Shown here piece after piece: positions 24,374-61,591 of a stretch of 64,000 bases of DNA. Location of the stretch: positions 1,280,001 to 1,344,000 of the forward strand of contig CH464491.1 in the NCBI GenBank assembly GCA_000002445.1, read 5' to 3'. How positions within the stretch are numbered: position 1 is the stretch's first letter; each line of letters starts with the position of its first letter. The notes under the pieces were generated by a model. That model was not told the origin of the DNA. It did not search any database and saw only the letters and a program-made list of their open reading frames with translations. The position numbers were made by a program, and so were the translations under genes. The DNA is from Trypanosoma brucei. Its lineage: Eukaryota.

Positions 24374-25940
24374 GTGGCTCGTAAAATATGCATTGGATTG
24401 CTTTTCGTGTTTTTTTTGTTTGTTTTCTTGTTTTTGTTTTCTTTTGGGGAGTATTCGATTGGATTTTTTTTTGGGAGGTGGAGGCTACTGTAGAGAGGAA
24501 GAGTCGTGTAAACAAGAGGAGGAAGCAGGAAGAAATAATAATAATAATAATAGAAGAAGGGAAGGAGAGTGGCTGCAACGGAAGGTAAAGTAAAAAAAAA
24601 AAAGAAGAGAGGGAGGAGAAGAGAGGAGAACAAACAACTTATCCCGTCATTTCTTCTTCTTCTTTTTTGATCTTGCGTTATTGTATGTATATGTATTCCT
24701 GACTTCTGTTGCTTCCTTCATCAATGCAGAAGTTGTCAGTTTCGCAAAGAATGAAGGAAGTAAAAAAAGAAAAGAAAAAAGTTTATTATTATTATTAAAG
24801 AAAAAAAAAGGAGAGATGAATAAAATAGAGGAAGGGAGTATGAATCCCATTTACTGGAGGAGAAAACAAAACGAAGGGGATTAAATGAGATGATGAAATT
24901 GAAAAGTGAGAGTGAGAGTATGAGTGAATGAACTGTTGCGAAGACGTGAGACAACTGGAAGGCGAGAAAGTTGTGTGGGATAATGTTAGAAAAAATAAGG
25001 AAACATATATAGAAAAAAGAAAAGAGAAGAGAAGAGGCAAGGGGTCATGGAGTAATAAAACGAGGGAAAATAGTAATGATAATAATAATAATAATAATAA
25101 AAACAAGATGGGAACATGAAAAACGGTGAAGGCAAATATGAGACTTGTAACTGTACCGAATATGACACCTATTGTTGTTATTATTACTATTGTTGTTATT
25201 TATTTATTTTTTTAAAAAAAAAGGGGGGAAAAAGAAAAAAAAATGAGGGAATAACATTTTGGATTTGCACCAGATCCAGTTTATATGGAAGAACCCCTGC
25301 TGATGGTGGCAAGGCGTATTGTGGACTTGACGCGGCAATTTTTTTTTTTTTACGCGCAACTGCTTCGGTAGAGTAGGACAAAAAGAAAAATTACGCAAAC
25401 AAAATATTTTGGTGATTTCTCTTTTTCCCCTTTTTGGTGTTTATATTTATGTTAAAAGTGTACAGTTATGTGTCTGTAAATTGTGGTATACCGTCACTTC
25501 AGCATTTCCTTCTTGTATAACACACCAACAAAGAAAAAAAAGAAAGGGAAAAAGATTTTTTTTCTAATTTATTCTATTTATATTTTGTTGTTGTTGGTGT
25601 TATTGCGTTAGTAACGGCAGCAATGTGTGGTATTTGAAGGTTTATGTTTCATTTCTGTATGATGATAACATGTGTAACTTTCATTCATTTAATGTTAGGT
25701 CTGCCATGTCGTCTCATTATTATTATTATTATTATCATCATCATCATGTTTTAAAGTTCTCTCGTCCCTCTCGTACTCAACTTTTCGTTTTTGTTTCTTT
25801 GTTATTTTGCCGAGAATAAAGAAAAAATATGTATGTATATATTTATTTATTTAAAAGCAACACCGACCGAACCTATCCTTCCCACAGCTACGCATAAGCA
25901 AAATTCGCAAACAGCACGAACTTTATTTATTTATTTATTT

Positions 25941-25970
25941 GTGTGTGTTTGTGTGTGTGTGTGTGTGTGT
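25941..25970. repeat. (GT)n microsatellite
   Basis: gtgtgtgtttgtgtgtgtgtgtgtgtgtgt. Confidence 0.9.
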
Positions 25971-26372
25971 TTTTTCTCCTCCCTCTTCTTTGTTTATGCC
26001 ATCTGATGTTGTAGTTGTTTTCTTTTCTTTTTTCCTTTTTTTTTTTTGTCAGCATGTGAAGGGAAAAGTTTCATCTCGTGTGTTTCCTTTCATTTGTTTT
26101 TTTTTCTCTCTTGCTTTTGTTCTTCGCTTCCTTCGCCCCATAATTCCGTTTGTTGACTCCTTTCGGCTCCTTCGCTTTTTGTTTTGTTTTATGTTTTATG
26201 TCTTTATATTTATTTGTTTAATGTTTCAATTGCCCTTGTGTTTGTATTTGTGTTTGTGTTTGTGCTCGGGAGGTTCTGTTTTTTTTTTTCCTTTTTGTTG
26301 TTTTTTTTTTTTCCCTCCCCCTTCCCCGCCGTTTGATGTTGTTTTTTCTTCACTCTTGATTTTATTCCTTTC

Positions 26373-26408
26373 CTCTCTCTCTCTCTCTCTCTCTCTCTGT
26401 CTGTCTCT
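26373..26408. repeat. (CT)n then (CTGT)n
   Basis: ctctctctctctctctctctctctctgtctgtctc. Confidence 0.9.
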
Positions 26409-26501
26409 TCACTTGAGCAATTTTTCTTACCTTACCGTTGGATGGACACTTCCTTTTTTTTCTTAAAAAATTACTGTTTGATTTCATTTAATTCTGCACG
26501 C

Positions 26502-26527
26502 GAGGAGGAGGAGGAGGAGGAGGAGGG
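26502..26527. repeat. (GAG)8 trinucleotide repeat
   Basis: gaggaggaggaggaggaggaggagg. Confidence 0.9.
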
Positions 26528-28187
26528 AAGGTGTGTTTTGTTTTATTTGAAAGAAAAAGAGAGGAGAAGAAAAAGAAATTAATTTATTTATTAATTAATT
26601 TATTTATTTACGTATGTGTGCGTTTTGTGTGAAATGGACGTCAAGAGGAGTAATATCCCAAAGCACTTTTCCTCTTCTTTTTTTTTTGTTCCCTCTCTCC
26701 CTCTCTCTCTCTTCTTTGTTTGTTTTTTTGTTTTGTTTGTTTTTTTACTTACTTAAAAAATGAAAATAATGTTTTGAATGAAAAATATCAATATTTTTAT
26801 TCGGGCGTGTCATGCATTGCTAAAACAAAAATAAATACGCCAATAGAGAAGAGGAGGAAGAAAGAAAATGGAATGGAATGGGTTGTGAAAGTCATGTAAT
26901 ATGAAGAAAGAAAAGAAAGAAAAAATAAATAAAAAAATAAAAAAGTGACAAAGGCCGAATATAAATAGAATTAAAAACAATACTGCCACCACCCACCCCA
27001 AAAAAAAAATATATATATATATAAGAAAGAGAAGTACGAGATGCGGATATTAACAAAAAGAAATTAAAGAGATGGGAAAGAGAGAAGGGGGGAAAAAAAA
27101 AAGACAGAGAACAACATGTAAAAATTTTAATTTTGGCGGGGGCGGGGGAAGGGGGGAGGGAAATGCAAAACTGTAATTTCTATTTTAAGAAATAAAATAA
27201 AATAAAATAAGAGAGAGAAAGAGAGAGATGGAAGTGTATTTATATGTGTACGTACCGGTATTAGGAGGAAAGGTGAAGAGCTGTGCGTTATAATGTATGA
27301 ATTTGTTGTTTGAGTGAAGGAATGAAAAAAAAAAAAGATAAATATATAAATAAATTACACATATGATTATAATTATAACAGAATAATAATCAAACAAAAC
27401 AATAATAACACAAAAAAAATAGGAGGAAGAGGAAGTAAAGGAAGGCGGAGGAATGTACAAAAAAAAAGCAGAGAGAAGAAGATAAGATTAAGTTATGCTA
27501 AGTTAAGTTAAGAGGCACATTTTAGAGGAGGAGGAGGAGGATGAGGAAGAAGAAGAAGAAAAACAAGAAACTAAATTGAAAAAAATGTGAGGGAGTAAAG
27601 ACATTGCAGGGGGAGGTGGGAGAAAAAATATATATATATATATATAAGAAAAGGGGGTGAAACAATTTTTTCTTTTAACCATATGAATATGAATATTTAT
27701 TTATATTTATATTTATATTTATATTCATATTTATATTTATATTGTGTATTTGTATTAGTGGTGCCCGGGGGTATCTCGCGGTTGGCGCTTTAAAATCTTG
27801 CATTTTGTTGTCGTGTTGTCTTCTTTTTTTTTTTTCTTTTTTCCTCCTCCCCCCCCTTGCGGTCGCATTATCTGTTCAAATTTTTTTTCATGTGTCTTTT
27901 TGTCGTGTTTGTTTGTTTGTTTGTTTTTTTCTTTACTTCGCTTTATCTTACCTTATCTTATCTTATCTTTTTCTCGTCATGTTTTTTTTTTACTTTGATT
28001 CTCTTCCGTTAATTTTTTTATACTTTTTATTTTCTTCATACTAATATTTGCTGCATGGTACTTCCAATGTCGTTACGCGTTTGATCCACTTTTTTTTTCT
28101 CCCCCCCCCCATCATTCCCCCCTTCTTTTTTTTTTTCATTCTTCTCATTTTCTACACGCACACACGCCTCTTCACTTTTTCTGGTGC

Positions 28188-28211
28188 ATATATATATATA
28201 TATATATATAT
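28188..28211. repeat. (AT)12 microsatellite
   Basis: atatatatatatatatatatatat. Confidence 0.9.
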
Positions 28212-29716
28212 TGTTATTTATTTATATACAAACACAATAAAAAAGCAAACGATGAAAGAATAAGACCGCAGAAGAGATAAACATTTTGTTGTTCAAGGAA
28301 GAAGGGGGTGACAGAAAAAAAAAAAGAAGGAAGCAAGAAGGAAGGAATGAATACAGTTTGTGTCTCTACGTGAAGCGATTATTTCATTTTGTTTTTTTTT
28401 TTAAATTATATTGTTATAACAATAATATAAAAAAAACTTATATCTTGTACCTCTATATTTACACGGACTGTGCACCGAAGTGTGTGGAAAGGAAAGCCCG
28501 CATGCTTAAGGAAGGAGAGGGGTTGTGTGTAGTGACTTTGTGAAGCCCTTTGAGGGAGTTTATTTCACGCCTTATTTTGTGTGTTGCGCTTCTCTGCTTT
28601 AAAAAAAAAAAAAAAAAAGTGGCCTCCCATCTTTTTTTTATTTATTTGTTGTTGTTGTTGTTGTTTTGGTTTTGCCTTCTCTCTCCTTGTTCTCCTTTCT
28701 CAAACAATAATTATTTTTTTTTGCTTTTGTTCTCTCTCCATTCACGTTGCAAATATATTGAAGAAAAGGGGGAATGGGGATGCACAAGTTGTTTTACTGG
28801 ATATCATTATTACAAATTTAAAGTGAAAAAACAAAGATGTCGAAAAAAAAAAAGGGGGACGGAAAAATATTATTATAATAACAATAATACTAATAATAAT
28901 AAATAGTGTACAGAAGTAATAAATAAGCAATCAAAAGGCAAGTTGTTTAAGTGATGCATTTGCTGAGGTGCATTGGCATCTGACTGACGTTTTGAACTTG
29001 TGGAGGATACGCATGCACATGTACACGTGTATGTGTGTGTAAATATATGTATATATGTTTATCAGCGCGTTCTTGTGCTTCCATTCCAAAAGAAAATAAA
29101 AAGGAGGAGGGGTTGCGGGACATCATATAACAATGTTACTGAAAAAAAAATGGAAGGGAAAAGAATATATGAGTGGATGAAAGGGTTATTATTAACAAAC
29201 CCCTGTTGCATTTACTCAGTAGGATACAAACACGTTCATCTGTAGCTGATGTCTGCTGGAAAGGTTTCGGGTGACAGGTCTCGGTGTCGGTATTGGTGCC
29301 ATTGTTTATTTTGTTTTATTGGAATCACGACACGACTGACTCACCACGGAAGTAGGCGTGCGGCGCAGAAATTATTACAGTCCCCCTTCTGACCGTTGGA
29401 TGCTATGAACGCACTCTATTTTACTCTCTCTCTTTCCCTCTTTCTCTCTTTTTCACGTCATCCCCTTTGGTATCGTTATCACTATTATTTATTTTATATT
29501 ATATGCAACTTCTACATTTTTTTTTTCATACCCTTTTTTTCATCTTTCACCCGCACTCAACTGTGATTTCTGTGGAACAACCACAATAACAACAAAATGA
29601 AGGAAACTTCGCATCTCTAAAGGGCAAAGCGGAGTATTTTGAAGAGTGTCAACCAATAAGTAAGTGCAGGCTTCCGTCGTGTCGGAAGCCTTATCTTTTA
29701 CTTATTGCTTGACTCG

Positions 29717-29739
29717 ATATATATATATATATATATATA
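29717..29739. repeat. (AT)n microsatellite ~35 bp upstream of the 29775 ATG
   Basis: atatatatatatatatatatata. Confidence 0.9.
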
Positions 29740-29774
29740 CATATACATATTCCTCAGCGCCGTAAGCACTTGTT

Positions 29775-34820: not shown

Positions 34821-35295
34821 GTTAAGACATTGGGGGGGGAATTGTGTTTTTTCGTATTTGTCGGTACGTAACGCGAATGTGTCTGAAGTCAAGCTTCCCG
34901 CACTATGGTGGCCGCACCGTTGTGCCGTGGGTTGTTCTCACTTTTCCTGCGTTTTATTTTATTTCTTTAATAACGGCGCCAGTACGCTACGAATGCTGCG
35001 CGCGTGTGTGTCTGTATCTGTGAAGGGTCGGAGGTTGCAACGTGTTACTTCAGAAGTGTGCGCTGCCAATTTGTACAGTAAAAGTGATGGTGTTGAAGAG
35101 GTGTAGCGGTGCGCTAAAAGGTGGTTGAAGAAAATTGGCTGAGTAGCAGTGCGCACACGTTTTTGAATATGATCTGCCCACATGTTAACGACTCGCTGAC
35201 CTCACTTACTGTTTTCGCTCCTCCCTTATTTCTTCAACTATTTTAAACTTCATGAAGCCACTTGGGCCCACCCGTCTGAGTGCTTGCCGCTGTGC

Positions 35296-38200
35296 ATGCA
35301 CATCTGGCGGACCGCTGCAAGCAACTGGGTAAAGAGACACGCCCGTTCTAATGCGGCACGGTGGAGGCGCCCAGAACCCGCTTCATCAAGTGCGGCAGCC
35401 AAAACAATAGCAAGATTGCTCGCAGTTGGTGGCCACGGCTGCTGGTCAGAAGCAACCGCGCTTTATGCAGAAGCACTCGCAACAAAGTCTGTGCAGAGGT
35501 ACGGTGTTGTGACACCCGCGCACCGCCATGATTGTATTGCACTAATTCTCGGAGCTATGTCATCTTCTGTCGACGCCAGCGGCTCTGATATTAACAGGGG
35601 CGAGGAGTCACTCACACCCCATTATGGGATGTTGGCAGAACGCTTGTCGTTAGACATAATTGTGCCGCATAGTGATGTAGGACAGGAAGAGAAGGAGGCC
35701 GCCTCTGTCGCATGCATAGCGGTTTTCAGGGCGCTGTTAACCTCCGGTCGCACGCATGCTGTCCAGCGTTTTGCTCAGCAGTTGCTGCGAAGCAGAAACT
35801 CACGTGAACATGGATTGTGGGCGCTTCGCACAATTATGTTGGCAGTAACGGCAAGGGAAGAGGGAATGTACCGTCAGCTTTTTCTGCATAGTGGGCTGCT
35901 AAAAGATCTTGAACATCTCACGGGCCTTGACGCGTTCACGGTCGTGATGTCGTCGTGCGATGGCCACGAGAAAAATATTGGACCGTGTGGAGGGAGGACG
36001 GAAGGGAACCTTGGAAGAGATGAGGTACACCGTGTTGCGGCAAGGTGGTGCGTGGACGTGGCCCTGCACATGCACACGTGTCCTTGGAGATTCTGCTTGA
36101 CAAACGAGAAGGAGCCACGACGAGAAACGGCGTTTAACAGTGAAGTCACAAGCTATTGCTGTGCCAAAGAGCTTCCAATGCCGGCATTTGCGGTGACGAT
36201 GCTGCCATTTGAGGTGCTACGCAGCAACGCGGTCGGTGTGTTGCGCTGTTGTACTGCTGCTGGGAACGGCTCACATGGCAACGAGGTTGTTACCTTTGAT
36301 GGTACTGCAAGTAATGTTAGTGGCGGTCGTTCTGGTGATTCTACCAGTTGTAGCACAACCGCTCCATCGCTGGGACTTCCTGCACTTAAGCGTTTACAAG
36401 ATGTTGTTTCTGCTGCTATTGAGGTTCCTCTCTCCACATATGAGCCTGTTGAGTGCTTATACTTGCTACTTCAAATATCTCGTGACAGCACCGCCCCTGA
36501 CCCCAGGCGTGTGATGCCATCCACGATGAATATTTTGTGGTGGCGACGGCATCTGCAGAGTTGCGTCCTTGAATCTGTTAAATCGGCTGTTAGGTGGAAG
36601 TCGGTGTGCGACTTTGTTGGTTTGAGCCGCTTAGTCACAGAACGTGTGCCGCATTGTTTTCCCCTTCTGGTCGCTCACGCGGCCGAGTCCCCGGATGCCT
36701 TGAGGACACTGTTCAACGAGGTGTCGCGGCAGGAAGGCGCTGCAGCACATCCTGTGGACGACATCCCACGCTCGTGTGTGATGGGGCTCCTGCAGATGTG
36801 TGGAGATGAAAGATCCGCTGCCGTTATTGATTGGGTGGTAGAGCATTGTAAGGATCATGAGAGTATCGCACAATTCGTTTTGGACAGCCTTGGGCAGCAC
36901 CAGAAGCTTGCGTCGGTCGTCGTGCGGCGGCTCTTTCAGCGAAGTGAGCAAAGCTCGGACGTTATTAATGCGCTTTCGAGACTGCTTGAAAAGGGCACTT
37001 GCAGGACGCTATTGGCTGATGTTTGCTCACTTGTTCCCCAAGCCCAGCAGTGGACGGTAGCGCTGCGGTTTGTAAGCGGCATGTCGGCCCCAGAAGTTGG
37101 GCACGTCCACACCGCCTTCATGGCGTTTGTAGGGAATTGTGATGAGCAGTTTGCTATTAACATGGCACTCCTTTGGTCCGATGAGACCTTCACGTGGTTG
37201 AAGGCTGATGTGAACCCACCGCCCCGGCGGGTGTACATGGACGACAGATGGAGCGATGCGCTTCGTCTTGTAGCGCTGGGTGCGGAGCGGTTAACGCAGC
37301 GGCCGGAGTTGTTGGGAAAGTACATCCGTTATTTTTCTAAAAGGGTTGCGGTAAATTCTCGCCTGTACATGGAGTTGGAGGCGCTCTTAGCGTGCTCGAA
37401 GGTGGGCGGTGGTAGCGCACGTAACTGCGGCCGTTCTTCTAACTGGAATCCCATTGCCAGTACAGTCACTGGCGGTCCTCCCTTAGAAACTTCATTGGTA
37501 GGAGTACGAACCGGGGTGCTTCCGAAGGGTCAGCAGTGGATGGAGGCATGCGCACATGCATCTGAGGTGGGTGTCACGCGTGGAGTACTCGAGATCCTCG
37601 CGAAGCGTGGGAGATGGGAAGAGGCTACCATAGTGCTGGCGAGAGCGGAGGCGAAACGAAGAGTGGAGTGGGCCCCGCTAGTAATACGTGCCGCACGTCT
37701 TTCCAGTCAGTGGCGGGCTGCACTTTCCGTGGCAGAGAAAATTGCAGCCAACGGAATGAAACTGCATTACAGTGTAGTAGCGGAGTTACTTGCGTGCTGC
37801 TTTTCTGCCGATGTACCCCTTGAGGTGGTTCAATTGTGGCTGCACAGGCGTTCAGTTGGGGAAAGTACGTCCTCGCATGTACTTTTCGGTCTGGGCCCTG
37901 GTTCGAGCTTGAGGACCGAGCAGCGTGACGCCAACGACAAACACAACGTTTTCGGTGATGCATCGAGATGGCTGGGCTCGGCGCAGGCGGAGCTCTTTTT
38001 TGTCCTCCTTGAATCGTCTTCCAGTCGATCGTCGGATCATCAGTGGCGTTACGCCCTGCAATTGCTGAAAGAGCATGTGCTATTAAGTGGTGGTGTTCCG
38101 TCTGCACGGGTGTTCCGTTCTACATATTCCATATTACACCGGGCAGAGCGGTGGCGGGAGTCGCTGCAACTTTTGGGTCTGCAGCGATCTGTTTGCGGTT

Positions 38201-39864
38201 CCCCCACGGTTAAATGTGTGCACCTTGTACTGAGCACCTTGCCGAGCACAGCTTGGCAGTATGCTCTAGGAGCTCTCCAATGTATTCCGCCTGGAGATTC
38301 GGGTTCCATTCATCGTGTATTGCCCTTATTGTTACCGGTGTCGTGGGAGTCTGCATTAGGTTTAATGATTGATCATCGTGTCATGACAAATACAGCGATG
38401 GAGTGTGTTGTTGGTTGCGAGGACGTGCCCTTGGTCCTACGTCTGCAGGCATGGAGGCGTTTGTTGCCGTCGCTGCCCGTGTCCATGAAGCACCGTGCGG
38501 CACCGATTTATTTACGGCTGGCAGCTGGTGTTGCTGATGGTGATGTTGGTGTTGAAGGGACGAATGGTCTGGACGCGATGTGCGTCATTGAACGCTCGAT
38601 CCGGGGCCTACGGGGTGATTATATTAATTACGCATCGTTTGTATACCATCGTGCTTTGCTGCATCGCCACTGGTGTAATGACAGCCTTCACCCGAGTGGC
38701 GGTGTGGCGGCCTTCCGGGCACTTAGCGGCATTGCTGAGGTAGACCAACAGTGTGAAGTTAGTGCCGCTGCGTTGGAGCAGTTAAGCAACATTGTTGAAA
38801 GGTTGGAACAGGTGTGTGGAACGGTTAGTGCATCGACAGCAACACATGGTTCCCAACACCTGGAGCGCACGGTGCCGGTTGTAAACTCCGGTGAGATACT
38901 TCAGGGCTCAGCTCCCACGAATGCTAGGCGTGACCCTGAAACCCACTGTTTTTCCTTTGTTTCATCCTACTGGTTGTCCTTGTTTTATTTGTTTCGTTAC
39001 TGCCGTTGTGTAATCTCCAGTTCTTTATTCCCTTTTTTTTTAAAAAAAAAAGATCAGGGCAGTGGACTACCGATATTTGACGTCATGCGCCTACATACGG
39101 TCCGCGCGCCAATCATCACGCGAGCCGCTATGCGTGGCTACTCGGAGGCACGGAGCAACTATGACGGCACCTCTCTCCCTGCGTGGCCGGCACCAGGGAA
39201 GAAACCAACTTATCCCGCAGCACTGTCGGAGTTGAGACTGCCGCAGCCGCGCATGCGCAAGACTCGTACCGAATGGATGTATTACCACGGCCACGGCGGT
39301 TGCCCTGGAAAGTATGGGCCGTCACGAGAAATAGCTGACTTCGAATATGCGGATGGGACTCCGGCGAGCATTAGTGGACGCCGGTTCGCGTTTAAGCACC
39401 ACCAAGACCACTTGCTCGTACAGCTAATACGCGCTGCAGCCACTGTGGAGCGCTACGACGCGAGTGGGTTACTACCACGTATCCCTGGTACGGCTGAGCA
39501 ACGCAACTGGGACCCGGCCATTCCGCTTTTTCTTGATGATGTGGATGAGCAAGGCAGACCTGCACCGTTGCGCACTGCGGGCGACGCCCCGGGGACGATG
39601 GTTAGTCATGTGTGTTCCCGTGTTGTGGATGAACGGATGGGAACTCCCACGCATACGCCAAATGAACTCGCCAACCGTCACGAGGGAGAAACACTCGAGG
39701 CAAATACAATGTTTGCAACCAATGATCCGAGTGCCTTTGTGTCTGATACGGTGAAGTTGCGTGACGACAAGCGGCCTTACTGGTCGCGGCGCCGCTGGGC
39801 CCTAACAGATAAATTTTTGGTGCCTAAGAGCCCCAAACCAAAGAACACCATCAAGGACGAGTAG
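35296..39864 (+). CDS. Large hypothetical protein (~1522 aa), PPR/TPR-like helical repeats with an Arg-rich presequence-like N-terminus; possibly mitochondrial and RNA-binding
   Basis: The ORF-track start at 35284 is TTG; the first ATG is 35296 (MHIWRTAASNWVKRHARSNAARWRR). Repeated ~35-aa helix-pair segments resembling PPR motifs (TALYAEALATKSVQRYGVVTPAHRHDCIALILGAMSSS; WRAALSVAEKIAANGMKLHYSVVAELLACCF; WRESLQLLGLQRS...). Confidence 0.8.
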   Translation: MHIWRTAASNWVKRHARSNAARWRRPEPASSSAAAKTIARLLAVGGHGCWSEATALYAEALATKSVQRYGVVTPAHRHDCIALILGAMSSSVDASGSDINRGEESLTPHYGMLAERLSLDIIVPHSDVGQEEKEAASVACIAVFRALLTSGRTHAVQRFAQQLLRSRNSREHGLWALRTIMLAVTAREEGMYRQLFLHSGLLKDLEHLTGLDAFTVVMSSCDGHEKNIGPCGGRTEGNLGRDEVHRVAARWCVDVALHMHTCPWRFCLTNEKEPRRETAFNSEVTSYCCAKELPMPAFAVTMLPFEVLRSNAVGVLRCCTAAGNGSHGNEVVTFDGTASNVSGGRSGDSTSCSTTAPSLGLPALKRLQDVVSAAIEVPLSTYEPVECLYLLLQISRDSTAPDPRRVMPSTMNILWWRRHLQSCVLESVKSAVRWKSVCDFVGLSRLVTERVPHCFPLLVAHAAESPDALRTLFNEVSRQEGAAAHPVDDIPRSCVMGLLQMCGDERSAAVIDWVVEHCKDHESIAQFVLDSLGQHQKLASVVVRRLFQRSEQSSDVINALSRLLEKGTCRTLLADVCSLVPQAQQWTVALRFVSGMSAPEVGHVHTAFMAFVGNCDEQFAINMALLWSDETFTWLKADVNPPPRRVYMDDRWSDALRLVALGAERLTQRPELLGKYIRYFSKRVAVNSRLYMELEALLACSKVGGGSARNCGRSSNWNPIASTVTGGPPLETSLVGVRTGVLPKGQQWMEACAHASEVGVTRGVLEILAKRGRWEEATIVLARAEAKRRVEWAPLVIRAARLSSQWRAALSVAEKIAANGMKLHYSVVAELLACCFSADVPLEVVQLWLHRRSVGESTSSHVLFGLGPGSSLRTEQRDANDKHNVFGDASRWLGSAQAELFFVLLESSSSRSSDHQWRYALQLLKEHVLLSGGVPSARVFRSTYSILHRAERWRESLQLLGLQRSVCGSPTVKCVHLVLSTLPSTAWQYALGALQCIPPGDSGSIHRVLPLLLPVSWESALGLMIDHRVMTNTAMECVVGCEDVPLVLRLQAWRRLLPSLPVSMKHRAAPIYLRLAAGVADGDVGVEGTNGLDAMCVIERSIRGLRGDYINYASFVYHRALLHRHWCNDSLHPSGGVAAFRALSGIAEVDQQCEVSAAALEQLSNIVERLEQVCGTVSASTATHGSQHLERTVPVVNSGEILQGSAPTNARRDPETHCFSFVSSYWLSLFYLFRYCRCVISSSLFPFFLKKKDQGSGLPIFDVMRLHTVRAPIITRAAMRGYSEARSNYDGTSLPAWPAPGKKPTYPAALSELRLPQPRMRKTRTEWMYYHGHGGCPGKYGPSREIADFEYADGTPASISGRRFAFKHHQDHLLVQLIRAAATVERYDASGLLPRIPGTAEQRNWDPAIPLFLDDVDEQGRPAPLRTAGDAPGTMVSHVCSRVVDERMGTPTHTPNELANRHEGETLEANTMFATNDPSAFVSDTVKLRDDKRPYWSRRRWALTDKFLVPKSPKPKNTIKDE

Positions 39865-40398: not shown

Positions 40399-42471
40399 AT
40401 GACCTCACTCTGTCCAATTACGAGTTCAATCACCGTAGCTATACGCAAGAGGCCAATCGCAAATAATGGAAACTCGGGAGACAAGGACATTGTTACATGT
40501 GAGGACTGTCGCACCATATCAGTGCACGAACCGAAGACACGCGTTGACCTTAAGGCAGTGGTGGAGACCTCAGCTTTTGCATTTGATTATGTATTTGATG
40601 AGTCTGTGGCAAACGATGTGGTATACAAGGTGTGCTGTCAACCGTTGCTGTCGGATGTACAGAACGGGGGAAGCGTTGTGGTTATTGCCTTTGGCCAGAC
40701 GGGCAGTGGGAAAACACACACCATGTTGGGTCACGGCAGCAAGACCATAGGGTTGTATGGATACGCCATTAGGGAGCTGATTGGCGAAGAAACCACTCGC
40801 AAGCTTGCGGTTAGCTTCTATGAGGTTTACGGTTCTAAGCTCTTTGACTTGTTGAATGGACGGACACAGTTGAAAATGATGCAGGATGAGGCTGACAATC
40901 TTCGGATTGTCGGGTTGTCGGAGAAAGTTGTCACATGTGACAAGGAGGTATATAAACTCATTTCAAAAGGAGAGTCGCTGCGTTCATCTGGGTCAACGCT
41001 CGCAAACGACACGAGCTCCCGATCGCACGCAGTGCTGGAAATCAAGGTTCTCAATTATCAGGGTGAGCCGCATGGTGGCCGAGTCACTCTTATAGATTTA
41101 GCCGGTAGTGAGCGGGCTGCGGATACGACAAGTAGTGATACAAGGGGACGACATGAAGGAGCTGAGATAAACAAGTCTCTGTTGGCCCTCAAGGAATGTA
41201 TTCGGGCCATGTCAAGGAACAGACGGCATATTCCTTTTCGTGCCTCCAAGTTGACGCAGGTGCTGCGTGAAAGTTTTATTGGTAATTGTAAGACATGTTT
41301 CATAGCGACAGTTTCACCCTTGCAGCGGCACTGTGAGGATACGCTGAACACGTTGCGGTATGCTAACCGCATAAGGGACCTTAAAGCCCCCTCCGATGAC
41401 GGCTTCAGCCGTAAGATATCGATGACATGCCCCAACTGCAATGGCCCCGTACGCCCTGATGCATCCCACACATGCGTGCGTTTGTCCACACGATGTCCGC
41501 ACTGTAGACAAGTGGTAGAAAAACATAACCTCGAAGGGCACATCGAGGAGTGTAGCGAGTTTCCCGTACGATGTCCTCGCTGTAATGAACTGTTAGTGCG
41601 CGGTGATATTCCACGGCACAATCGTCGTTGTTCCCGATCTCTAGTGCGCTGTCCGTTGTGCACATGCCACGTGATGCGCTGTGGTTTGGAGAAACACACT
41701 CTGATGGATTGCGGGGCCAAACTAGAGAAGTGTCGTTATTGTGGACAGGGGTTTCCACGTCACTCATTGAAGAGGCACGAAGACGTGTGCACGATGATGA
41801 AGATCGCCTGTCCTTATTGTCTGCAATATTTTAGAAAAGTTTGCGTAGATGCTCATGCCTCGGTGTGTGTAAGGAACCCAAACTGCAGGCGAGTGTCACC
41901 GTCAAGGATTAGGGATTCGGGTGAAGAGGTGTGGAAGATAACAAACGGAAAGGAATGGCGGCAACGGCCTCGGATGTTAAGGAACCAGTCGTTGAAGCAG
42001 CTTGAGGCAATCTCTCGAACAAAATCAAGTGTGCAGCTTCGGGAAGGGCGAAAACCCTTAGGGCCACTTGAAGACAATTTTTCACTTCCCGCTTTGCACG
42101 CACCCTCCTCAGCCCCCGACAGGAAACACCCACCGGTTACCAGCGCTTTCACCGAAAGCCTACAAAGTCACCCCAACAGCGAGGACGATGATGCCGACAA
42201 GGAAGTTTGCAGAACCGCCCCAACTATCAGTGGAGAAAATAGCAGCCGAGTTGGAGGTGAAGGTTGTGTTTGCCCTTACGCTGCCTATGGTTGCTTGCAC
42301 ACTGTGTGTGACTCTTCTCTAGAGAAGCATATGAAAGACTCGGTAGAAATGCATCTGCAATTGGTTCGTGACTACGCAGAGCGGGTTTCAGAAGAAAATA
42401 ACATTCTTCGGGAGCGTGTGAATGAGGGCACCACTAAGGCTTCAAAGCTTCATGAACTTGAAAGCGTGTGA
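40399..42471 (+). CDS. Kinesin-13-family motor protein fused to a C-terminal array of TRAF-type (C-x2-C-x9-12-H-x3-5-C) zinc fingers and a short terminal coiled coil
   Basis: ATG at 40399. P-loop GQTGSGKTHTM. Switch I SSRSHAVL. Kinesin-13-diagnostic switch II and neck region VTLIDLAGSERAADT...EGAEINKSLLALKECIRAM...HIPFRASKLTQVLRESF. Five to six zinc-finger units lie between ~41425 and 41880 (CPHCRQVVEKHNLEGHIEEC, CPRCNELLVRGDIPRHNRRC, CRYCGQGFPRHSLKRHEDVC, CPYCLQYFRKVCVDAHASVC). Confidence 0.85.
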   Translation: MTSLCPITSSITVAIRKRPIANNGNSGDKDIVTCEDCRTISVHEPKTRVDLKAVVETSAFAFDYVFDESVANDVVYKVCCQPLLSDVQNGGSVVVIAFGQTGSGKTHTMLGHGSKTIGLYGYAIRELIGEETTRKLAVSFYEVYGSKLFDLLNGRTQLKMMQDEADNLRIVGLSEKVVTCDKEVYKLISKGESLRSSGSTLANDTSSRSHAVLEIKVLNYQGEPHGGRVTLIDLAGSERAADTTSSDTRGRHEGAEINKSLLALKECIRAMSRNRRHIPFRASKLTQVLRESFIGNCKTCFIATVSPLQRHCEDTLNTLRYANRIRDLKAPSDDGFSRKISMTCPNCNGPVRPDASHTCVRLSTRCPHCRQVVEKHNLEGHIEECSEFPVRCPRCNELLVRGDIPRHNRRCSRSLVRCPLCTCHVMRCGLEKHTLMDCGAKLEKCRYCGQGFPRHSLKRHEDVCTMMKIACPYCLQYFRKVCVDAHASVCVRNPNCRRVSPSRIRDSGEEVWKITNGKEWRQRPRMLRNQSLKQLEAISRTKSSVQLREGRKPLGPLEDNFSLPALHAPSSAPDRKHPPVTSAFTESLQSHPNSEDDDADKEVCRTAPTISGENSSRVGGEGCVCPYAAYGCLHTVCDSSLEKHMKDSVEMHLQLVRDYAERVSEENNILRERVNEGTTKASKLHELESV

Positions 42472-60277: not shown

Positions 60278-61591
60278 ATGAATCGCATACTGTTTGCACT
60301 TGCCATCATCTTTTATTTACCGATTCCCCTCAGCGTCATCAAGGGGAGCTGTAAAGAAATTCCGACCCACCAGCAGCCACAGGCCCCTTACATACCAAAT
60401 ATTCAAAAGCAAACAAAAGAGGTATTGACACCATCGCAACAAGAAGATAAACAGAATTTTTCTCCAACGCTCCACAAAATAGAAAGTGCGCGGCAGTTCC
60501 ACTACGACGACTCAACAAATATCGACGGAAACAAAAGCATTCAGCATCAAACCGCAGTAACAGACGTCAATGACAATAACAGTGCCAACACTTCCAATGA
60601 GGATGAAGAGGAAGATGAAGATGAAGATGATACCGCAGTAACAGACGTCAATGACAATAACAGTGCCAACACTTCCAATGAGGATGAAGAGGAAGATGAA
60701 GATGAAGATGATACCGCAGTAACAGACGTCAATGACAATAACAGTGCCAACACTTCCAATGAGGATGAAGGGGAAGATGAAGATGAAGATGATACCGCAG
60801 TAACAGACGTCAATGACAATAACAGTGCCAACACTTCCAATGAGGATGAAGAGGAAGATGAAGATGAAGATGATACCGCAGTAACAGACGTCAATGACAA
60901 TAACAGTGCCAACACTTCCAATGAGGATGAAGAGGAAGATGAAGATGAAGATGATACCGCAGTAACAGACGTCAATGACAATAACAGTGCCAACACTTCC
61001 AATGAGGATGAAGAGGAAGATGAAGATGAAGATGATACCGCAGTAACAGACGTCAATGACAATAACAGTGCCAACACTTCCAATGAGGATGAAGGGGAAG
61101 ATGAAGATGAAGATGATACCGCAGTAACAGACGTCAATGACAATAACAGTGCCAACACTTCCAATGAGGATGAAGAGGAAGATGAGGATGAAGATGATAC
61201 CGCAGTAACAGACGTCAATGACAATAACAGTGCCAACACTTCCAATGAGGATGAAGAGGAAGATGAGGATGAAGATGATACCGCAGTAACAGACGTCAAT
61301 GACAATAACAGTGCCAACACTTCCAATGAGGATGAAGAGGAAGATGAGGATGAAGATGATACCGCAGTAACAGACGTCAATGACAATAACAGTGCCAACA
61401 CTTCCAATGAGGATGAAGGGAAAGAGGAACTGGAGTTTACCATTGCTCCTTCTCCTGTTTTTTTACCTCCTCCACCGGTAAGTGATGAAAATTCCACTCT
61501 TCTGGATGGGAATGATCTCTCCGTTGACAGGGGTAATTATTGTTCATTGCTATTTTCCTTCGTGTTTGTGTTTCTTACCTTTGTCGTCTAA
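60278..61591 (+). CDS. Predicted secreted/GPI-anchored acidic repeat protein. It has a signal peptide, then ~10.7 x 27-aa repeats (AVTDVNDNNSANTSNEDEEEDEDEDDT), then a hydrophobic C-terminal tail
   Basis: ATG at 60278. N-terminal hydrophobic h-region (MNRILFALAIIFYLPIPLSVIKGSC). 81-bp tandem units from ~60554 to ~61418. C-terminus ...GNYCSLLFSFVFVFLTFVV is typical of a GPI-addition signal. Confidence 0.8.
   Translation: MNRILFALAIIFYLPIPLSVIKGSCKEIPTHQQPQAPYIPNIQKQTKEVLTPSQQEDKQNFSPTLHKIESARQFHYDDSTNIDGNKSIQHQTAVTDVNDNNSANTSNEDEEEDEDEDDTAVTDVNDNNSANTSNEDEEEDEDEDDTAVTDVNDNNSANTSNEDEGEDEDEDDTAVTDVNDNNSANTSNEDEEEDEDEDDTAVTDVNDNNSANTSNEDEEEDEDEDDTAVTDVNDNNSANTSNEDEEEDEDEDDTAVTDVNDNNSANTSNEDEGEDEDEDDTAVTDVNDNNSANTSNEDEEEDEDEDDTAVTDVNDNNSANTSNEDEEEDEDEDDTAVTDVNDNNSANTSNEDEEEDEDEDDTAVTDVNDNNSANTSNEDEGKEELEFTIAPSPVFLPPPPVSDENSTLLDGNDLSVDRGNYCSLLFSFVFVFLTFVV
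60554..61418 (+). repeat. Coding tandem repeat of 81 bp x ~10.7 with a 4-unit higher-order pattern. Units 3, 7 and 11 carry GGG (Gly) instead of GAG. Units 8-10 share a synonymous GAA>GAG
   Basis: Seen directly in the sequence and in the ORF translation. The perfect-repeat mirror ORF on the minus strand (60547..61497, Ser-rich) is an artifact of this array. Confidence 0.9.

What the first reader, a model, noticed from the sequence alone, without database searches (positions are those of the whole stretch)
40399..42471. Kinesin-13 motor fused to a tandem TRAF-type zinc-finger array
The motor domain carries kinesin-13-specific motifs (DLAGSERAADT, KSLLALKECIRAM, HIPFRASKLTQVLRESF). These are microtubule-depolymerising kinesins. 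The C-terminal half has five to six C-x2-C-x(9-12)-H-x(3-5)-C units, typical of TRAF/SIAH-type zinc fingers. That domain class is normally found in ubiquitin-ligase and signalling adaptors, not in kinesins. This could target the depolymerase to a specific cytoskeletal or flagellar site, or couple it to ubiquitin signalling.
Basis: partly seen in the sequence, partly recalled or inferred. Interest (0 to 1): 0.6.

Follow-up and report, generated by a model that had tools for sequence, protein, structure and literature searches.

The report
Flagellar-tip kinesin-13 with TRAF-type zinc fingers
This gene is the already described Trypanosoma brucei flagellar-tip microtubule-depolymerising kinesin TbKIN13-2, and its tail really does carry a conserved row of TRAF-type zinc fingers, which databases already annotate but whose function has not been tested.

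Summary
Window 40399-42471(+) is one 690-aa ORF, identical to T. brucei TREU927 XP_828542.1/Q385V1. This is TbKif13-2/TbKIN13-2 (Tb11.02.2260), a published flagellar-tip kinesin-13.

The motor (aa 16-327) is clearly kinesin-13. Its best sequence and fold matches are KIF2A, KIF2C and KLP10A, and the catalytic motifs are intact.

The tail has six tandem C2HC fingers (aa 344-490) separated by constant 6-residue linkers. A disordered linker follows, then a seventh finger (C-x6-C-x11-H-x7-H) that runs into a C-terminal helix.

The T. brucei protein scores below the Pfam zf-TRAF cut-off as a full-length sequence (20.1 against 27 bits). However, 47 of 48 orthologues match zf-TRAF, the zinc ligands are invariant, an orthologue profile hits TRAF4, TRAFD1 and TRAF6 best, and the AlphaFold model's top fold match is TRAF6. 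CEP104's finger array is a weaker second match.

There is no RING, MATH or SIAH substrate-binding domain, so a ubiquitin-ligase role is unsupported.

The fusion is found in kinetoplastids, diplonemids and euglenids, and only in the KIN13-2 lineage. Public annotation already describes it.

My best reading is that the fingers are a rigid, basic docking module that holds the depolymerase at the axoneme tip. That step is inferred.

Verdict: real, correctly read, already known, of moderate-to-low interest.

The parts
40399..42471 (+). Complete CDS of TbKIN13-2 / TbKif13-2 (690 aa plus stop codon)
   Evidence: ORF list. Exact match to XP_828542.1/Q385V1, which is named 'Kinesin-13 2' in T. equiperdum. 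Gene Tb11.02.2260 in PMC2984613.
40444..41379 (+). Kinesin-13 motor domain (aa 16-327)
   Evidence: Pfam Kinesin, E 8e-86. Best PDB matches are KIF2A/KIF2C at 1e-93. AF2 pLDDT is mostly above 87, and the top Foldseek hits are all kinesin-13.
40540..40548 (+). Loop-2 'KVD finger' position; reads RVD in T. brucei (aa 48-50)
   Evidence: Across the 48 orthologues the tripeptide is RVD in 16, KLD in 14 and KVD in 8. T. congolense has RPD.
40693..40716 (+). P-loop GQTGSGKT (aa 99-106)
   Evidence: Seven of its eight residues are invariant and T101 is at least 90% conserved in the 48-sequence alignment.
41014..41028 (+). Switch I SSRSH (aa 206-210)
   Evidence: Invariant in the alignment.
41095..41112 (+). 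Switch II DLAGSE (aa 233-238)
   Evidence: Five of its six residues are invariant and S237 is at least 90% conserved in the alignment.
41191..41199 (+). Kinesin-13-specific KEC motif (aa 265-267)
   Evidence: K265, E266 and C267 are invariant. PMC2990766 describes this motif as specific to the class.
41428..41475 (+). Finger 1, short variant C-x2-C-x9-H-x1-C (aa 344-359)
   Evidence: Its ligands are invariant in the 21-sequence alignment of kinetoplastid-type arrays. It is absent from the euglenid and diplonemid homologues. AF2 confidence is lower here, pLDDT about 76-84.
41494..41553 (+). Finger 2, C-x2-C-x11-H-x3-C (aa 366-385)
   Evidence: C366, C369, H381 and C385 are invariant in 48 sequences. 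Beta-beta-alpha fold with pLDDT above 93.
41572..41631 (+). Finger 3 (aa 392-411)
   Evidence: C392, C395, H407 and C411 are invariant.
41650..41712 (+). Finger 4, C-x2-C-x11-H-x4-C (aa 418-438)
   Evidence: C418, C421, H433 and C438 are invariant.
41731..41790 (+). Finger 5 (aa 445-464)
   Evidence: C445, C448, H460 and C464 are invariant.
41809..41868 (+). Finger 6 (aa 471-490)
   Evidence: C474 is invariant. C471, H486 and C490 are at least 90% conserved.
41893..42255 (+). Disordered, poorly conserved linker (aa 499-619), rich in Ser/Thr/Pro
   Evidence: AF2 pLDDT below 50. No consensus in the alignment. 28% S+T+P.
42271..42354 (+). Distal TRAF/Sina-like finger, C-x6-C-x11-H-x7-H (aa 625-652)
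   Evidence: C, G, C, H and H are invariant in 24 orthologues. zf-TRAF matches 21/24, zf-TRAF_2 14/24 and Sina_ZnF 8/24 orthologues, but none matches the T. brucei copy itself. The profile hits the FBXO30 zinc-finger domain (PDB 2yre) at E 0.007. pLDDT above 90.
42343..42465 (+). C-terminal long helix, a putative coiled-coil oligomerisation element (aa 649-689)
   Evidence: AF2 gives a continuous helix at aa 649-689 with pLDDT 84-97. It carries the conserved motif HLxLVxxYA...EN..LR. The oligomeric state was not tested.

Best explanation

The N-terminal motor is a catalytically intact kinesin-13 head. By homology, and from published work on the Leishmania orthologue, it depolymerises microtubule ends.

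Directly after the motor comes a row of six zinc-binding C2HC beta-beta-alpha fingers with fixed 6-residue linkers. These are TRAF-type fingers arranged as in the TRAF6 finger rod, and the array is strongly basic. A disordered linker of about 120 residues follows. It leads to a seventh TRAF/Sina-like finger fused to a C-terminal helix that probably oligomerises the protein.

I propose, as an inference, that the finger rod is a protein-protein docking module, and that the distal finger with its helix also contributes. It would recruit or retain the depolymerase at the plus ends of the axonemal doublets and set its access to them. It is not a ubiquitin-ligase element, because the RING and MATH parts of TRAF proteins are absent.

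The motor-finger fusion is found in all three euglenozoan classes and marks the KIN13-2 lineage only.
For: SHOWN
- Identity: exact match to XP_828542.1/Q385V1, 'Kinesin-13 2'.
- Published localisation at the flagellar tip, and the marginal knockout phenotype (PMC2984613; PMC2990766). In Leishmania, Kin13-2 and CEP104 both sit at the tips of 9+2 and 9+0 axonemes (PMC4682162).
- Motor: Pfam 8e-86, KIF2A/KIF2C at 1e-93, Foldseek top 18 all kinesin-13. The P-loop, switch I/II and KEC motifs are at least 90% conserved at every position and mostly invariant.
- Fingers: six units with constant 6-residue linkers. Ligands of fingers 2-5 are invariant, and those of finger 6 and the distal finger are at least 90% conserved, across 48 sequences.
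- zf-TRAF matches 47 of 48 orthologues, best E 3e-18. Eight of the nine orthologues scored individually reach 41-59 bits against a cut-off of 27; T. congolense scores 25.5.
- The orthologue profile against the PDB gives TRAF4 2e-8, TRAFD1/FLN29 5e-8 and TRAF6 3-5e-6 over four collinear fingers, but CEP104 only 6e-4.
- The AF2 array model has pLDDT 94 with beta-beta-alpha in every unit. The best Foldseek hit is TRAF6 3HCS (E 4e-7, TM 0.46), against CEP104 at TM 0.21-0.27.
- The distal finger matches zf-TRAF, zf-TRAF_2 and Sina_ZnF in orthologues.
- Lineage restriction: other trypanosomatid kinesin-13 paralogues have no fingers.
- The fusion occurs in Euglena gracilis, E. longa, Rhabdomonas, Hemistasia and many kinetoplastids.
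- Array net charge is +7 to +15 in 21 orthologues.

INFERRED
- The targeting role. It rests on the correlation that only the finger-bearing paralogue is at the tip.
- It also rests on the documented protein-binding role of the related C2HC array in the tip protein CEP104 (PMC5222566).
Against: - No experiment links the fingers to localisation. The Blaineau 2007 paper on the Leishmania orthologue, which may contain deletion mutants, could not be read.
- The T. brucei copy scores below the Pfam cut-off when scanned full-length (20.1 bits). Its distal finger matches no Pfam family on its own.
- The Foldseek superposition on TRAF6 has a large rmsd (18.6 A), so the inter-finger geometry is not closely matched or is not reliably predicted.
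- The T. brucei knockout has almost no phenotype, so the functional importance of any part in this species is uncertain.
- The motor phylogeny does not resolve a single origin of the fusion. Bootstrap support for monophyly of all finger-bearing motors is 11%.
- No partner is known, and the oligomeric state of the C-terminal helix is untested.
Confidence: 0.6

Rival explanations
1. The basic finger rod is an electrostatic tether to tubulin itself. It would bind the acidic, polyglutamylated C-terminal tails or curved protofilament ends. In doing so it would replace the positively charged neck that kinesin-13B (MCAK/KIF2) uses and that kinesin-13A proteins lack.
For: - The array carries a net charge of +7 to +15 (pI 8.6-9.3) in all 21 orthologues examined.
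- It starts only about 15 residues after the motor.
- Kinesin-13A proteins lack the charged neck (PMC2990766).
Against: - No TRAF-type finger matched here (TRAF4, TRAFD1, TRAF6) was described as tubulin-binding in anything I read, and no microtubule-binding model beyond the motor hits this region.
- A positive charge is equally compatible with binding any acidic partner.
- Generic microtubule affinity would not by itself explain why the protein is restricted to the flagellar tip, given that the cell body is full of microtubules.
Confidence: 0.2
2. The fingers couple the depolymerase to ubiquitin signalling. They would act either as part of an E3 ligase, as in TRAF6 or SIAH, or as ubiquitin-binding zinc fingers that recognise ubiquitinated axonemal or IFT proteins.
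For: - zf-TRAF and Sina-type fingers occur in E3 ligases such as TRAF6 and SIAH1, both of which appear among the fold matches.
- Pfam zf_UBZ (ubiquitin-binding zinc finger) matches the arrays of 5 of 21 orthologues, best E 3.7e-7.
- There are weak PDB profile hits to the WRNIP1 and RAD18 zinc-finger chains (3vhs, 2mre), at E 0.06-0.23.
Against: - No RING, U-box, MATH or SIAH substrate-binding domain is found in the T. brucei protein or in any of 48 orthologues.
- In TRAF6, ligase activity needs the RING. This rests on established knowledge of TRAF6 (the RING binds the E2; compare the TRAF6-Ubc13 complex 5VO0 listed), and the fingers alone are not catalytic.
- The zf_UBZ matches occur in a minority of orthologues and not in T. 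brucei.
Confidence: 0.1
3. The array is a CEP104-like finger domain. It would bind the same class of partners as CEP104's fingers (NEK-family kinase coiled coils or CP110-like capping factors) and so would compete or cooperate with TbCEP104/ACS3 at the axoneme cap.
For: - For the single T. brucei tail sequence, the best PDB match is the CEP104 finger array 5LPI, E 9.5e-6.
- Pfam CEP104_ZnF scores 27.9 bits against a cut-off of 27.4 on the isolated array, and matches 16 of 21 orthologue arrays.
- CEP104 is a tip protein in trypanosomatids too (TbACS3, PMC6281473; PMC4682162).
Against: - With orthologue profiles, TRAF4, TRAFD1 and TRAF6 outrank CEP104 by 2-4 orders of magnitude.
- The CEP104 fingers have variable linkers (2-8 residues) and pack into a globule (PMC5222566). 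Here the linkers are always 6 residues, and the model matches TRAF6 (TM 0.46) better than CEP104 (TM 0.21-0.27).
- CEP104's partner segments are basic (pI 9.4-10.4). A basic array such as this one would not be expected to bind them.
Confidence: 0.08
4. The fingers are classical nucleic-acid-binding zinc fingers.
For: - The units have the beta-beta-alpha fold, and the profile and fold searches also hit C2H2 DNA-binding arrays: the consensus zinc finger at 1e-6, SNAI1, and CTCF.
- The array is basic.
Against: - The protein is at the flagellar tip and is excluded from the nucleus (PMC2990766).
- The last ligand is Cys rather than His, and the 6-residue linkers lack the TGEKP-type C2H2 linker.
- TRAF-type models score better.
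Confidence: 0.02

Closest known systems
TbKif13-2 / TbKIN13-2 (Tb11.02.2260) and its orthologue LmjKIN13-2
   Same: It is this protein. The sequence is identical to the deposited T. brucei TREU927 entry. Published work places it at the flagellar tip. The Leishmania orthologue shortens flagella when overexpressed (PMC2984613, PMC2990766).
   Different: Nothing differs in sequence. The open-access papers I could read do not mention the zinc-finger tail: a search for 'zinc' and 'TRAF' in PMC2990766 returned nothing, and the one occurrence of 'finger' refers to the KVD finger. The domain description is therefore in databases rather than in those papers.
Kinesin-13 motors KIF2A, KIF2C/MCAK, KLP10A (kinesin-13B) and KIF24 (kinesin-13A)
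   Same: The motor fold and the class-specific KEC motif are shared, and the motor is 42-47% identical to KIF2A, KIF2C and KLP10A. The loop-2 finger is conserved as K/R-V/L-D.
   Different: - The motor is N-terminal, with no MCAK-type charged neck (PMC2990766).
- The tail is a zinc-finger array rather than the MCAK C-terminal region.
- KVD reads RVD.
TRAF-type zinc fingers (Pfam PF02176), as in TRAF6, TRAF4 and TRAFD1/FLN29
   Same: - The ligand pattern is C2HC with the same internal spacing.
- Each unit has a beta-beta-alpha fold.
- The sequence separation between successive fingers is fixed, a property PMC5222566 also reports for TRAF6.
- These are the best profile and fold matches.
- A finger leads directly into a helix, as I recall for TRAF proteins; I did not test that comparison here.
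   Different: - There is no RING before the fingers and no MATH/TRAF-C domain after them.
- The fingers are attached to a motor.
- There are six or seven fingers, and the first is a shortened variant.
CEP104 (FAP256 / TbACS3) C2HC finger array
   Same: It is also a tandem C2HC array in a protein of the ciliary tip. The sequence similarity is detectable.
   Different: - CEP104 has four fingers with variable linkers, packed into one globular domain that binds basic partner segments (PMC5222566).
- Here the linkers are constant, the model is TRAF6-like, and the array itself is basic.

Membership tests
Kinesin-13 | Kinesin motor domain with intact P-loop, switch I and switch II | tested here: met
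   Pfam PF00225 E 8e-86. GQTGSGKT, SSRSH and DLAGSE are present, each position at least 90% conserved and most invariant across 48 orthologues.
Kinesin-13 | Closer to kinesin-13 motors than to any other kinesin family | tested here: met
   KIF2A/KIF2C/KLP10A score 1e-93 to 1e-83 and PfKinI 3e-70, against 1e-55 for kinesin-8. The Foldseek top 18 are all kinesin-13. PMC2990766 places it in Kinesin-13A by Bayesian phylogeny.
Kinesin-13 | Class-specific KEC motif and loop-2 KVD finger | tested here: met
   KEC at aa 265-267 is invariant. The KVD position reads RVD in T. brucei, a conservative change; across orthologues it is RVD 16, KLD 14 and KVD 8.
Kinesin-13 | ATP-dependent microtubule-end depolymerisation | not testable with these tools
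   Reported for LmjKIN13-2 according to PMC2990766. Not measured for the T. brucei protein in the papers read.
TRAF-type zinc finger (Pfam PF02176) | Score at or above the Pfam gathering cut-off (27 bits) | tested here: inconclusive
   T. brucei full-length scores 20.1 bits, below the cut-off. The isolated array scores 28.3 bits, just above it. Eight of the nine orthologues scored individually reach 41-59 bits, and 47 of 48 match at E<=1e-3. T. congolense scores 25.5.
TRAF-type zinc finger (Pfam PF02176) | Conserved C2HC zinc ligands with TRAF-like spacing and fixed inter-finger separation | tested here: met
   Five units are C-x2-C-x11-H-x3/4-C and all linkers are 6 residues. The ligands are invariant or at least 90% conserved.
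TRAF-type zinc finger (Pfam PF02176) | Beta-beta-alpha finger fold closest to solved TRAF fingers | tested here: met
   AF2 pLDDT 94, with a beta hairpin plus helix in each unit. The top Foldseek hit is TRAF6 3HCS at E 4e-7, and TRAF4, TRAF5 and FLN29 are also hit. This rests on a predicted model, not a solved structure.
TRAF-type zinc finger (Pfam PF02176) | Zinc binding | not testable with these tools
   Needs metal analysis of recombinant protein.
TRAF adaptor / E3 ligase proteins | N-terminal RING domain | tested here: not met
   No RING family matches in the T. brucei protein or in 48 orthologues.
TRAF adaptor / E3 ligase proteins | C-terminal MATH/TRAF-C domain | tested here: not met
   No MATH match. 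The protein ends in a single helix.
SIAH / Sina | Sina zinc fingers plus a substrate-binding domain | tested here: not met
   Sina_ZnF matches only the distal finger of 8 of 24 orthologues (best E 1e-3) and not the T. brucei copy. There is no Sina substrate-binding domain. SIAH1 is only a weak fold hit, E 0.05.
CEP104 zinc-finger array (Pfam PF21039) | Four C2HC fingers with variable linkers packed into one globular domain | tested here: not met
   The score is marginal (27.9 against 27.4 on the isolated array, 18 bits full-length). The linkers are a constant 6 residues, against 2-8 in CEP104. Foldseek TM to 5LPI is 0.21-0.27, against 0.46 to TRAF6.

The most novel reading that the evidence does not exclude
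The TRAF-type finger rod would be an ancient, Euglenozoa-wide address label. It would dock a kinesin-13 depolymerase onto the axonemal capping structure at the flagellar tip, and its binding would be the regulated step in flagellum length control. The ciliary tip protein CEP104/ACS3 independently uses a related C2HC array, so tandem C2HC fingers would emerge as a recurrent module for targeting proteins to the ciliary tip. Higher conservation of the fingers than of the motor in salivarian trypanosomes (79% against 65% identity) would then mean that docking, not depolymerisation, is the function kept under selection there.
Probability: 0.3. Interest if true: 0.5.

Novelty: already known. Interest (0 to 1): 0.27.

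Why it matters
How flagella set their length is an open question, and kinesin-13 depolymerases at the tip are candidate regulators. What puts this particular kinesin-13 at the tip, alone among seven paralogues, is not explained in the papers I could read. The finger array is the obvious candidate.

The array is conserved from euglenids to Leishmania. It is easy to delete or mutate in a tractable organism. It is related to the partner-binding array of the ciliopathy protein CEP104. So the finding points to a cheap and specific experiment.

It does not reveal a new kind of protein. The gene, its localisation, its knockout phenotype and its domain annotation are all already public.

Tried and rejected
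- The word-indexed homologue search with the tail alone returned only T. grayi, and with the finger profile returned nothing. The index seems to handle Cys-rich repeats poorly. The exhaustive representative search and the full-length search replaced it.
- The AFDB50 fold library was unavailable, so I could not use named AlphaFold entries to look for the fusion outside Euglenozoa.
- Blaineau et al. 2007 (LmjKIN13-2) and Varga et al. 2017 (tip proteome) are not held. I therefore cannot say whether deletion mutants or tip-structure assignments already address the tail.
- The look-up of encoding contigs for two environmental homologues gave no organism names.
- The Biopython bootstrap timed out, and I replaced it with a numpy NJ bootstrap. 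That tree strongly supports the kinetoplastid, euglenid and diplonemid finger-bearing clades separately (100% each). It does not resolve whether they are one clade (11%), so a single origin of the fusion rests on the shared collinear architecture and not on the motor tree.
- I looked at four high-scoring JGI proteins without fingers (P0188, P0190-192). P0188, the one I aligned, carries two kinesin-13 motors in tandem, which explains its score.
- I rejected the reading that this is a TRAF or SIAH protein (no RING, MATH or substrate-binding domain), the nucleic-acid-binding reading (localisation), and the CEP104-type globular array (linkers and fold match).
- Rfam found nothing in the window.
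Full report
**What is there**

Window 40399-42471 on the + strand is a single ATG-initiated ORF of 690 aa. Its translation is identical over its full length to T. brucei brucei TREU927 XP_828542.1 / UniProt Q385V1. The same sequence is named 'Kinesin-13 2' in T. equiperdum. This is TbKif13-2 / TbKIN13-2 (Tb11.02.2260). It was localised to the distal flagellar tip and knocked out, with only marginal effects on flagellum length, by Chan and Ersfeld in 2010 (PMC2984613). Wickstead et al. 2010 localised it by endogenous tagging (PMC2990766). The window is therefore from T. brucei. The longest contig carrying this protein is 5.26 Mb. I have not confirmed which chromosome it is.

**Check of the observation**

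The Cys/His pattern occurs six times between aa 344 and 490. Five units are C-x2-C-x11-H-x3/4-C. The first is a shortened C-x2-C-x9-H-x1-C. Every inter-finger linker is exactly 6 residues. None of 20,000 shuffles of the protein reached six matches; the maximum was two.

**The motor**

Pfam Kinesin matches aa 16-327 at 8e-86. Against all PDB sequences, the ten best matches are KIF2A, KIF2C/MCAK and KLP10A (1e-93 to 1e-83), followed by the Plasmodium kinesin-13. The best kinesin from another family, a kinesin-8, scores 1e-55.

An AlphaFold2 model built on a 48-sequence orthologue alignment is confident over the motor. Its 18 best Foldseek matches in the PDB are all kinesin-13 structures.

In that alignment every position of the P-loop, switch I, switch II and the class-specific KEC motif is at least 90% conserved, and most are invariant. 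The loop-2 'KVD finger' reads RVD in T. brucei. Across orthologues the position is RVD, KLD or KVD in 38 of 48 sequences. The kinesin-13 assignment is secure and agrees with the published placement in subfamily 13A.

**The fingers**

Scanned full-length, the T. brucei protein falls below every zinc-finger cut-off: zf-TRAF 20.1 bits against 27, CEP104_ZnF 18, zf-C2HC_2 17.7. For the single tail sequence, the best solved-structure match is the CEP104 finger array (9.5e-6), ahead of TRAF4 (8.6e-4). Taken alone this would leave the TRAF assignment open. Orthologues settle it.

- An exhaustive search with the tail found 447 related proteins.
- A full-length search found orthologues in T. congolense, T. 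melophagium, T. rangeli, T. conorhini, T. grayi, T. cruzi marinkellei, Leptomonas, Leishmania, Porcisia, Novymonas, Angomonas and Strigomonas. It also found homologues in Euglena gracilis, Rhabdomonas costata and Hemistasia, all with precomputed Kinesin plus zf-TRAF domains. A Euglena longa homologue has the same architecture.
- In a 48-sequence alignment, the four ligands of fingers 2-5 are invariant. Those of finger 6 and the distal finger are at least 90% conserved. Finger 1 is invariant within the kinetoplastid-type sequences but absent from the euglenid and diplonemid proteins.
- Pfam zf-TRAF matches 47 of the 48 proteins, best E 3e-18. Eight of the nine orthologues scored individually reach 41-59 bits. 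Only the two salivarian trypanosomes fall short, T. brucei at 20.1 and T. congolense at 25.5.
- The isolated T. brucei array just clears both zf-TRAF (28.3 against 27) and CEP104_ZnF (27.9 against 27.4).
- A profile of the array searched against the PDB ranks TRAF4 (2e-8), TRAFD1/FLN29 (5e-8), a second TRAF4 fragment (1e-6) and TRAF6 (3-5e-6, aligned collinearly over four fingers). CEP104 scores 6e-4.
- A separate AlphaFold2 model of the array alone has mean pLDDT 94, with a beta hairpin and a helix in each of fingers 2-6.
- Its best PDB fold match is the TRAF6 N-terminal region 3HCS (E 4e-7, TM 0.46), then the TRAF6-Ubc13 complex. CEP104 scores E 2.5e-4 with TM 0.21-0.27.

The authors of the CEP104 structure give a structural discriminator. 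TRAF6 fingers have a fixed sequence separation and form a linear array. CEP104 fingers have variable separations of 2-8 residues and pack into a globule (PMC5222566). The constant 6-residue linkers here place this protein on the TRAF6 side.

The distal finger matches zf-TRAF in 21 of 24 orthologues, zf-TRAF_2 in 14 and Sina_ZnF in 8. The T. brucei copy on its own matches nothing. Its profile hits the zinc-finger domain of FBXO30 (PDB 2yre) at E 0.007.

Between the array and the distal finger lie about 120 poorly conserved residues with pLDDT below 50. After the distal finger comes a confident 40-residue helix.

**What it is not**

No RING, U-box, MATH/TRAF-C or SIAH substrate-binding domain is detected in the T. 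brucei protein or in any orthologue. So it contains TRAF-type fingers but is not a TRAF or SIAH protein, and there is no basis for ligase activity. A ubiquitin-binding role for individual fingers is not excluded: zf_UBZ matches 5 of 21 orthologue arrays. That support is weak and absent in T. brucei.

**Distribution**

Other trypanosomatid kinesin-13 paralogues, including KIN13-1, have no fingers. All named proteins with the motor-finger architecture are Euglenozoa.

A neighbour-joining tree of the motors gives 100% bootstrap support to the kinetoplastid KIN13-2 clade, to the euglenid clade and to the diplonemid-type clade. Support for all finger-bearing motors forming one clade is only 11%. 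A single ancient fusion is therefore the economical reading of the collinear architecture, but the motor tree does not prove it.

The nearest non-kinesin arrays belong to euglenid proteins with 12-13 fingers (Peranema, Entosiphon) and to arthropod TRAF6-like proteins.

**Mechanism**

The following is shown here or published:
- the motor is an intact kinesin-13 head;
- the protein is at the axoneme tip in T. brucei and Leishmania;
- overexpression shortens flagella strongly in Leishmania and slightly in T. brucei;
- the tail is a conserved array of zinc fingers of the TRAF type.

The rest is inferred. Only the finger-bearing paralogue is at the tip. Related C2HC arrays are protein-binding modules; the CEP104 array binds CP110 and Nek1. 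I therefore propose that the rod docks the motor at the axonemal doublet ends, and that the distal finger and helix provide oligomerisation. I put about 0.5 on this functional step. I put above 0.9 on the identity and the domain assignments.

The array is uniformly basic, with a net charge of +7 to +15 in 21 orthologues. This argues against it sharing CEP104's basic partners. It keeps open a rival in which the array tethers the motor to the acidic tubulin tails, standing in for the charged neck that kinesin-13A proteins lack.

**Novelty and verdict**

The gene, its family, its localisation and its loss-of-function phenotype were published in 2010. The domain architecture is in public annotation: one Leishmania record is literally named for the kinesin motor plus TRAF-type zinc finger, and T. 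melophagium calls its orthologue 'zinc finger protein'.

In the papers I could read, the finger tail is not discussed. PMC2990766 contains neither 'zinc' nor 'TRAF'. Its Figure 1 shows Pfam domains, but I could not view it. Full-text searches combining kinesin-13, trypanosomes and zinc finger, or 'TRAF-type zinc finger' and kinesin, gave nothing relevant.

The finding is real but already known. What remains is an untested, easily testable question about what the fingers do.

Noticed in passing
window 40399-42471, compared with orthologues P0159 and others: Between T. brucei and T. congolense the motor is only 65% identical, but the finger array is 79% identical. In every other species pair compared the motor is the more conserved part (for example 92 against 82, and 88 against 69). 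Stercorarian Trypanosoma motors are closer to Leishmaniinae (64-74%) than to T. brucei (59-62%). T. congolense has RPD in place of KVD. This suggests accelerated motor evolution in Salivaria while the fingers stay constrained, which would fit the marginal knockout phenotype in T. brucei.
   Followed up: partly
window 60551-61429, within ORF 60278-61591 (+): A near-perfect tandem repeat of 81 bp, 10.9 copies at 98% identity. Its consensus is rich in GAA/GAT/GAG codons, so it would encode a 27-residue Asp/Glu-rich repeat in a 437-aa ORF. The repeat was not translated and the protein was not identified.
   Followed up: no
window about 24400-29770: A stretch of about 5.4 kb that is AT-rich (GC 0.31-0.37, against about 0.50 elsewhere) and has no ORF longer than 175 aa. 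It lies between co-directional genes and contains a (TATTTA)n microsatellite at 27698-27756. All ORFs of 320 aa or more in the window are on the + strand, so this is not a strand-switch region. Its nature was not examined.
   Followed up: no
window 35284-39864 (+): The mechanical ORF of 1526 aa starting at a TTG, immediately upstream of the kinesin gene, looks like more than one coding region read through in one frame. The true gene boundaries were not determined.
   Followed up: no
P0188 (also P0190, P0191, P0192; JGI metagenome proteins): P0188 is a predicted protein of 863 aa that carries two complete kinesin-13 motor domains in tandem and no fingers. It could be a gene-model fusion of tandem paralogues or a real double-motor protein. 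P0190-192 have similar lengths (844-887 aa) and scores and also lack fingers, but I did not align them.
   Followed up: partly
P0011 (Peranema trichophorum), P0013 (Entosiphon sulcatum): The closest non-kinesin relatives of the finger array are euglenid proteins with 12-13 tandem C2HC fingers, mostly separated by the same 6-residue linkers. Many further proteins among the 150 best hits have such arrays, including arthropod TRAF6-like proteins. This is a possible donor pool for the fusion.
   Followed up: partly
L002 704-2812 (ENA contig ERZ21831265:ctg79923l): In one environmental kinetoplastid-like contig, the gene immediately upstream of the KIN13-2 homologue encodes a 702-aa zf-MYND protein. 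All called genes there are co-directional and called as single uninterrupted ORFs. Synteny with the T. brucei window was not compared.
   Followed up: no
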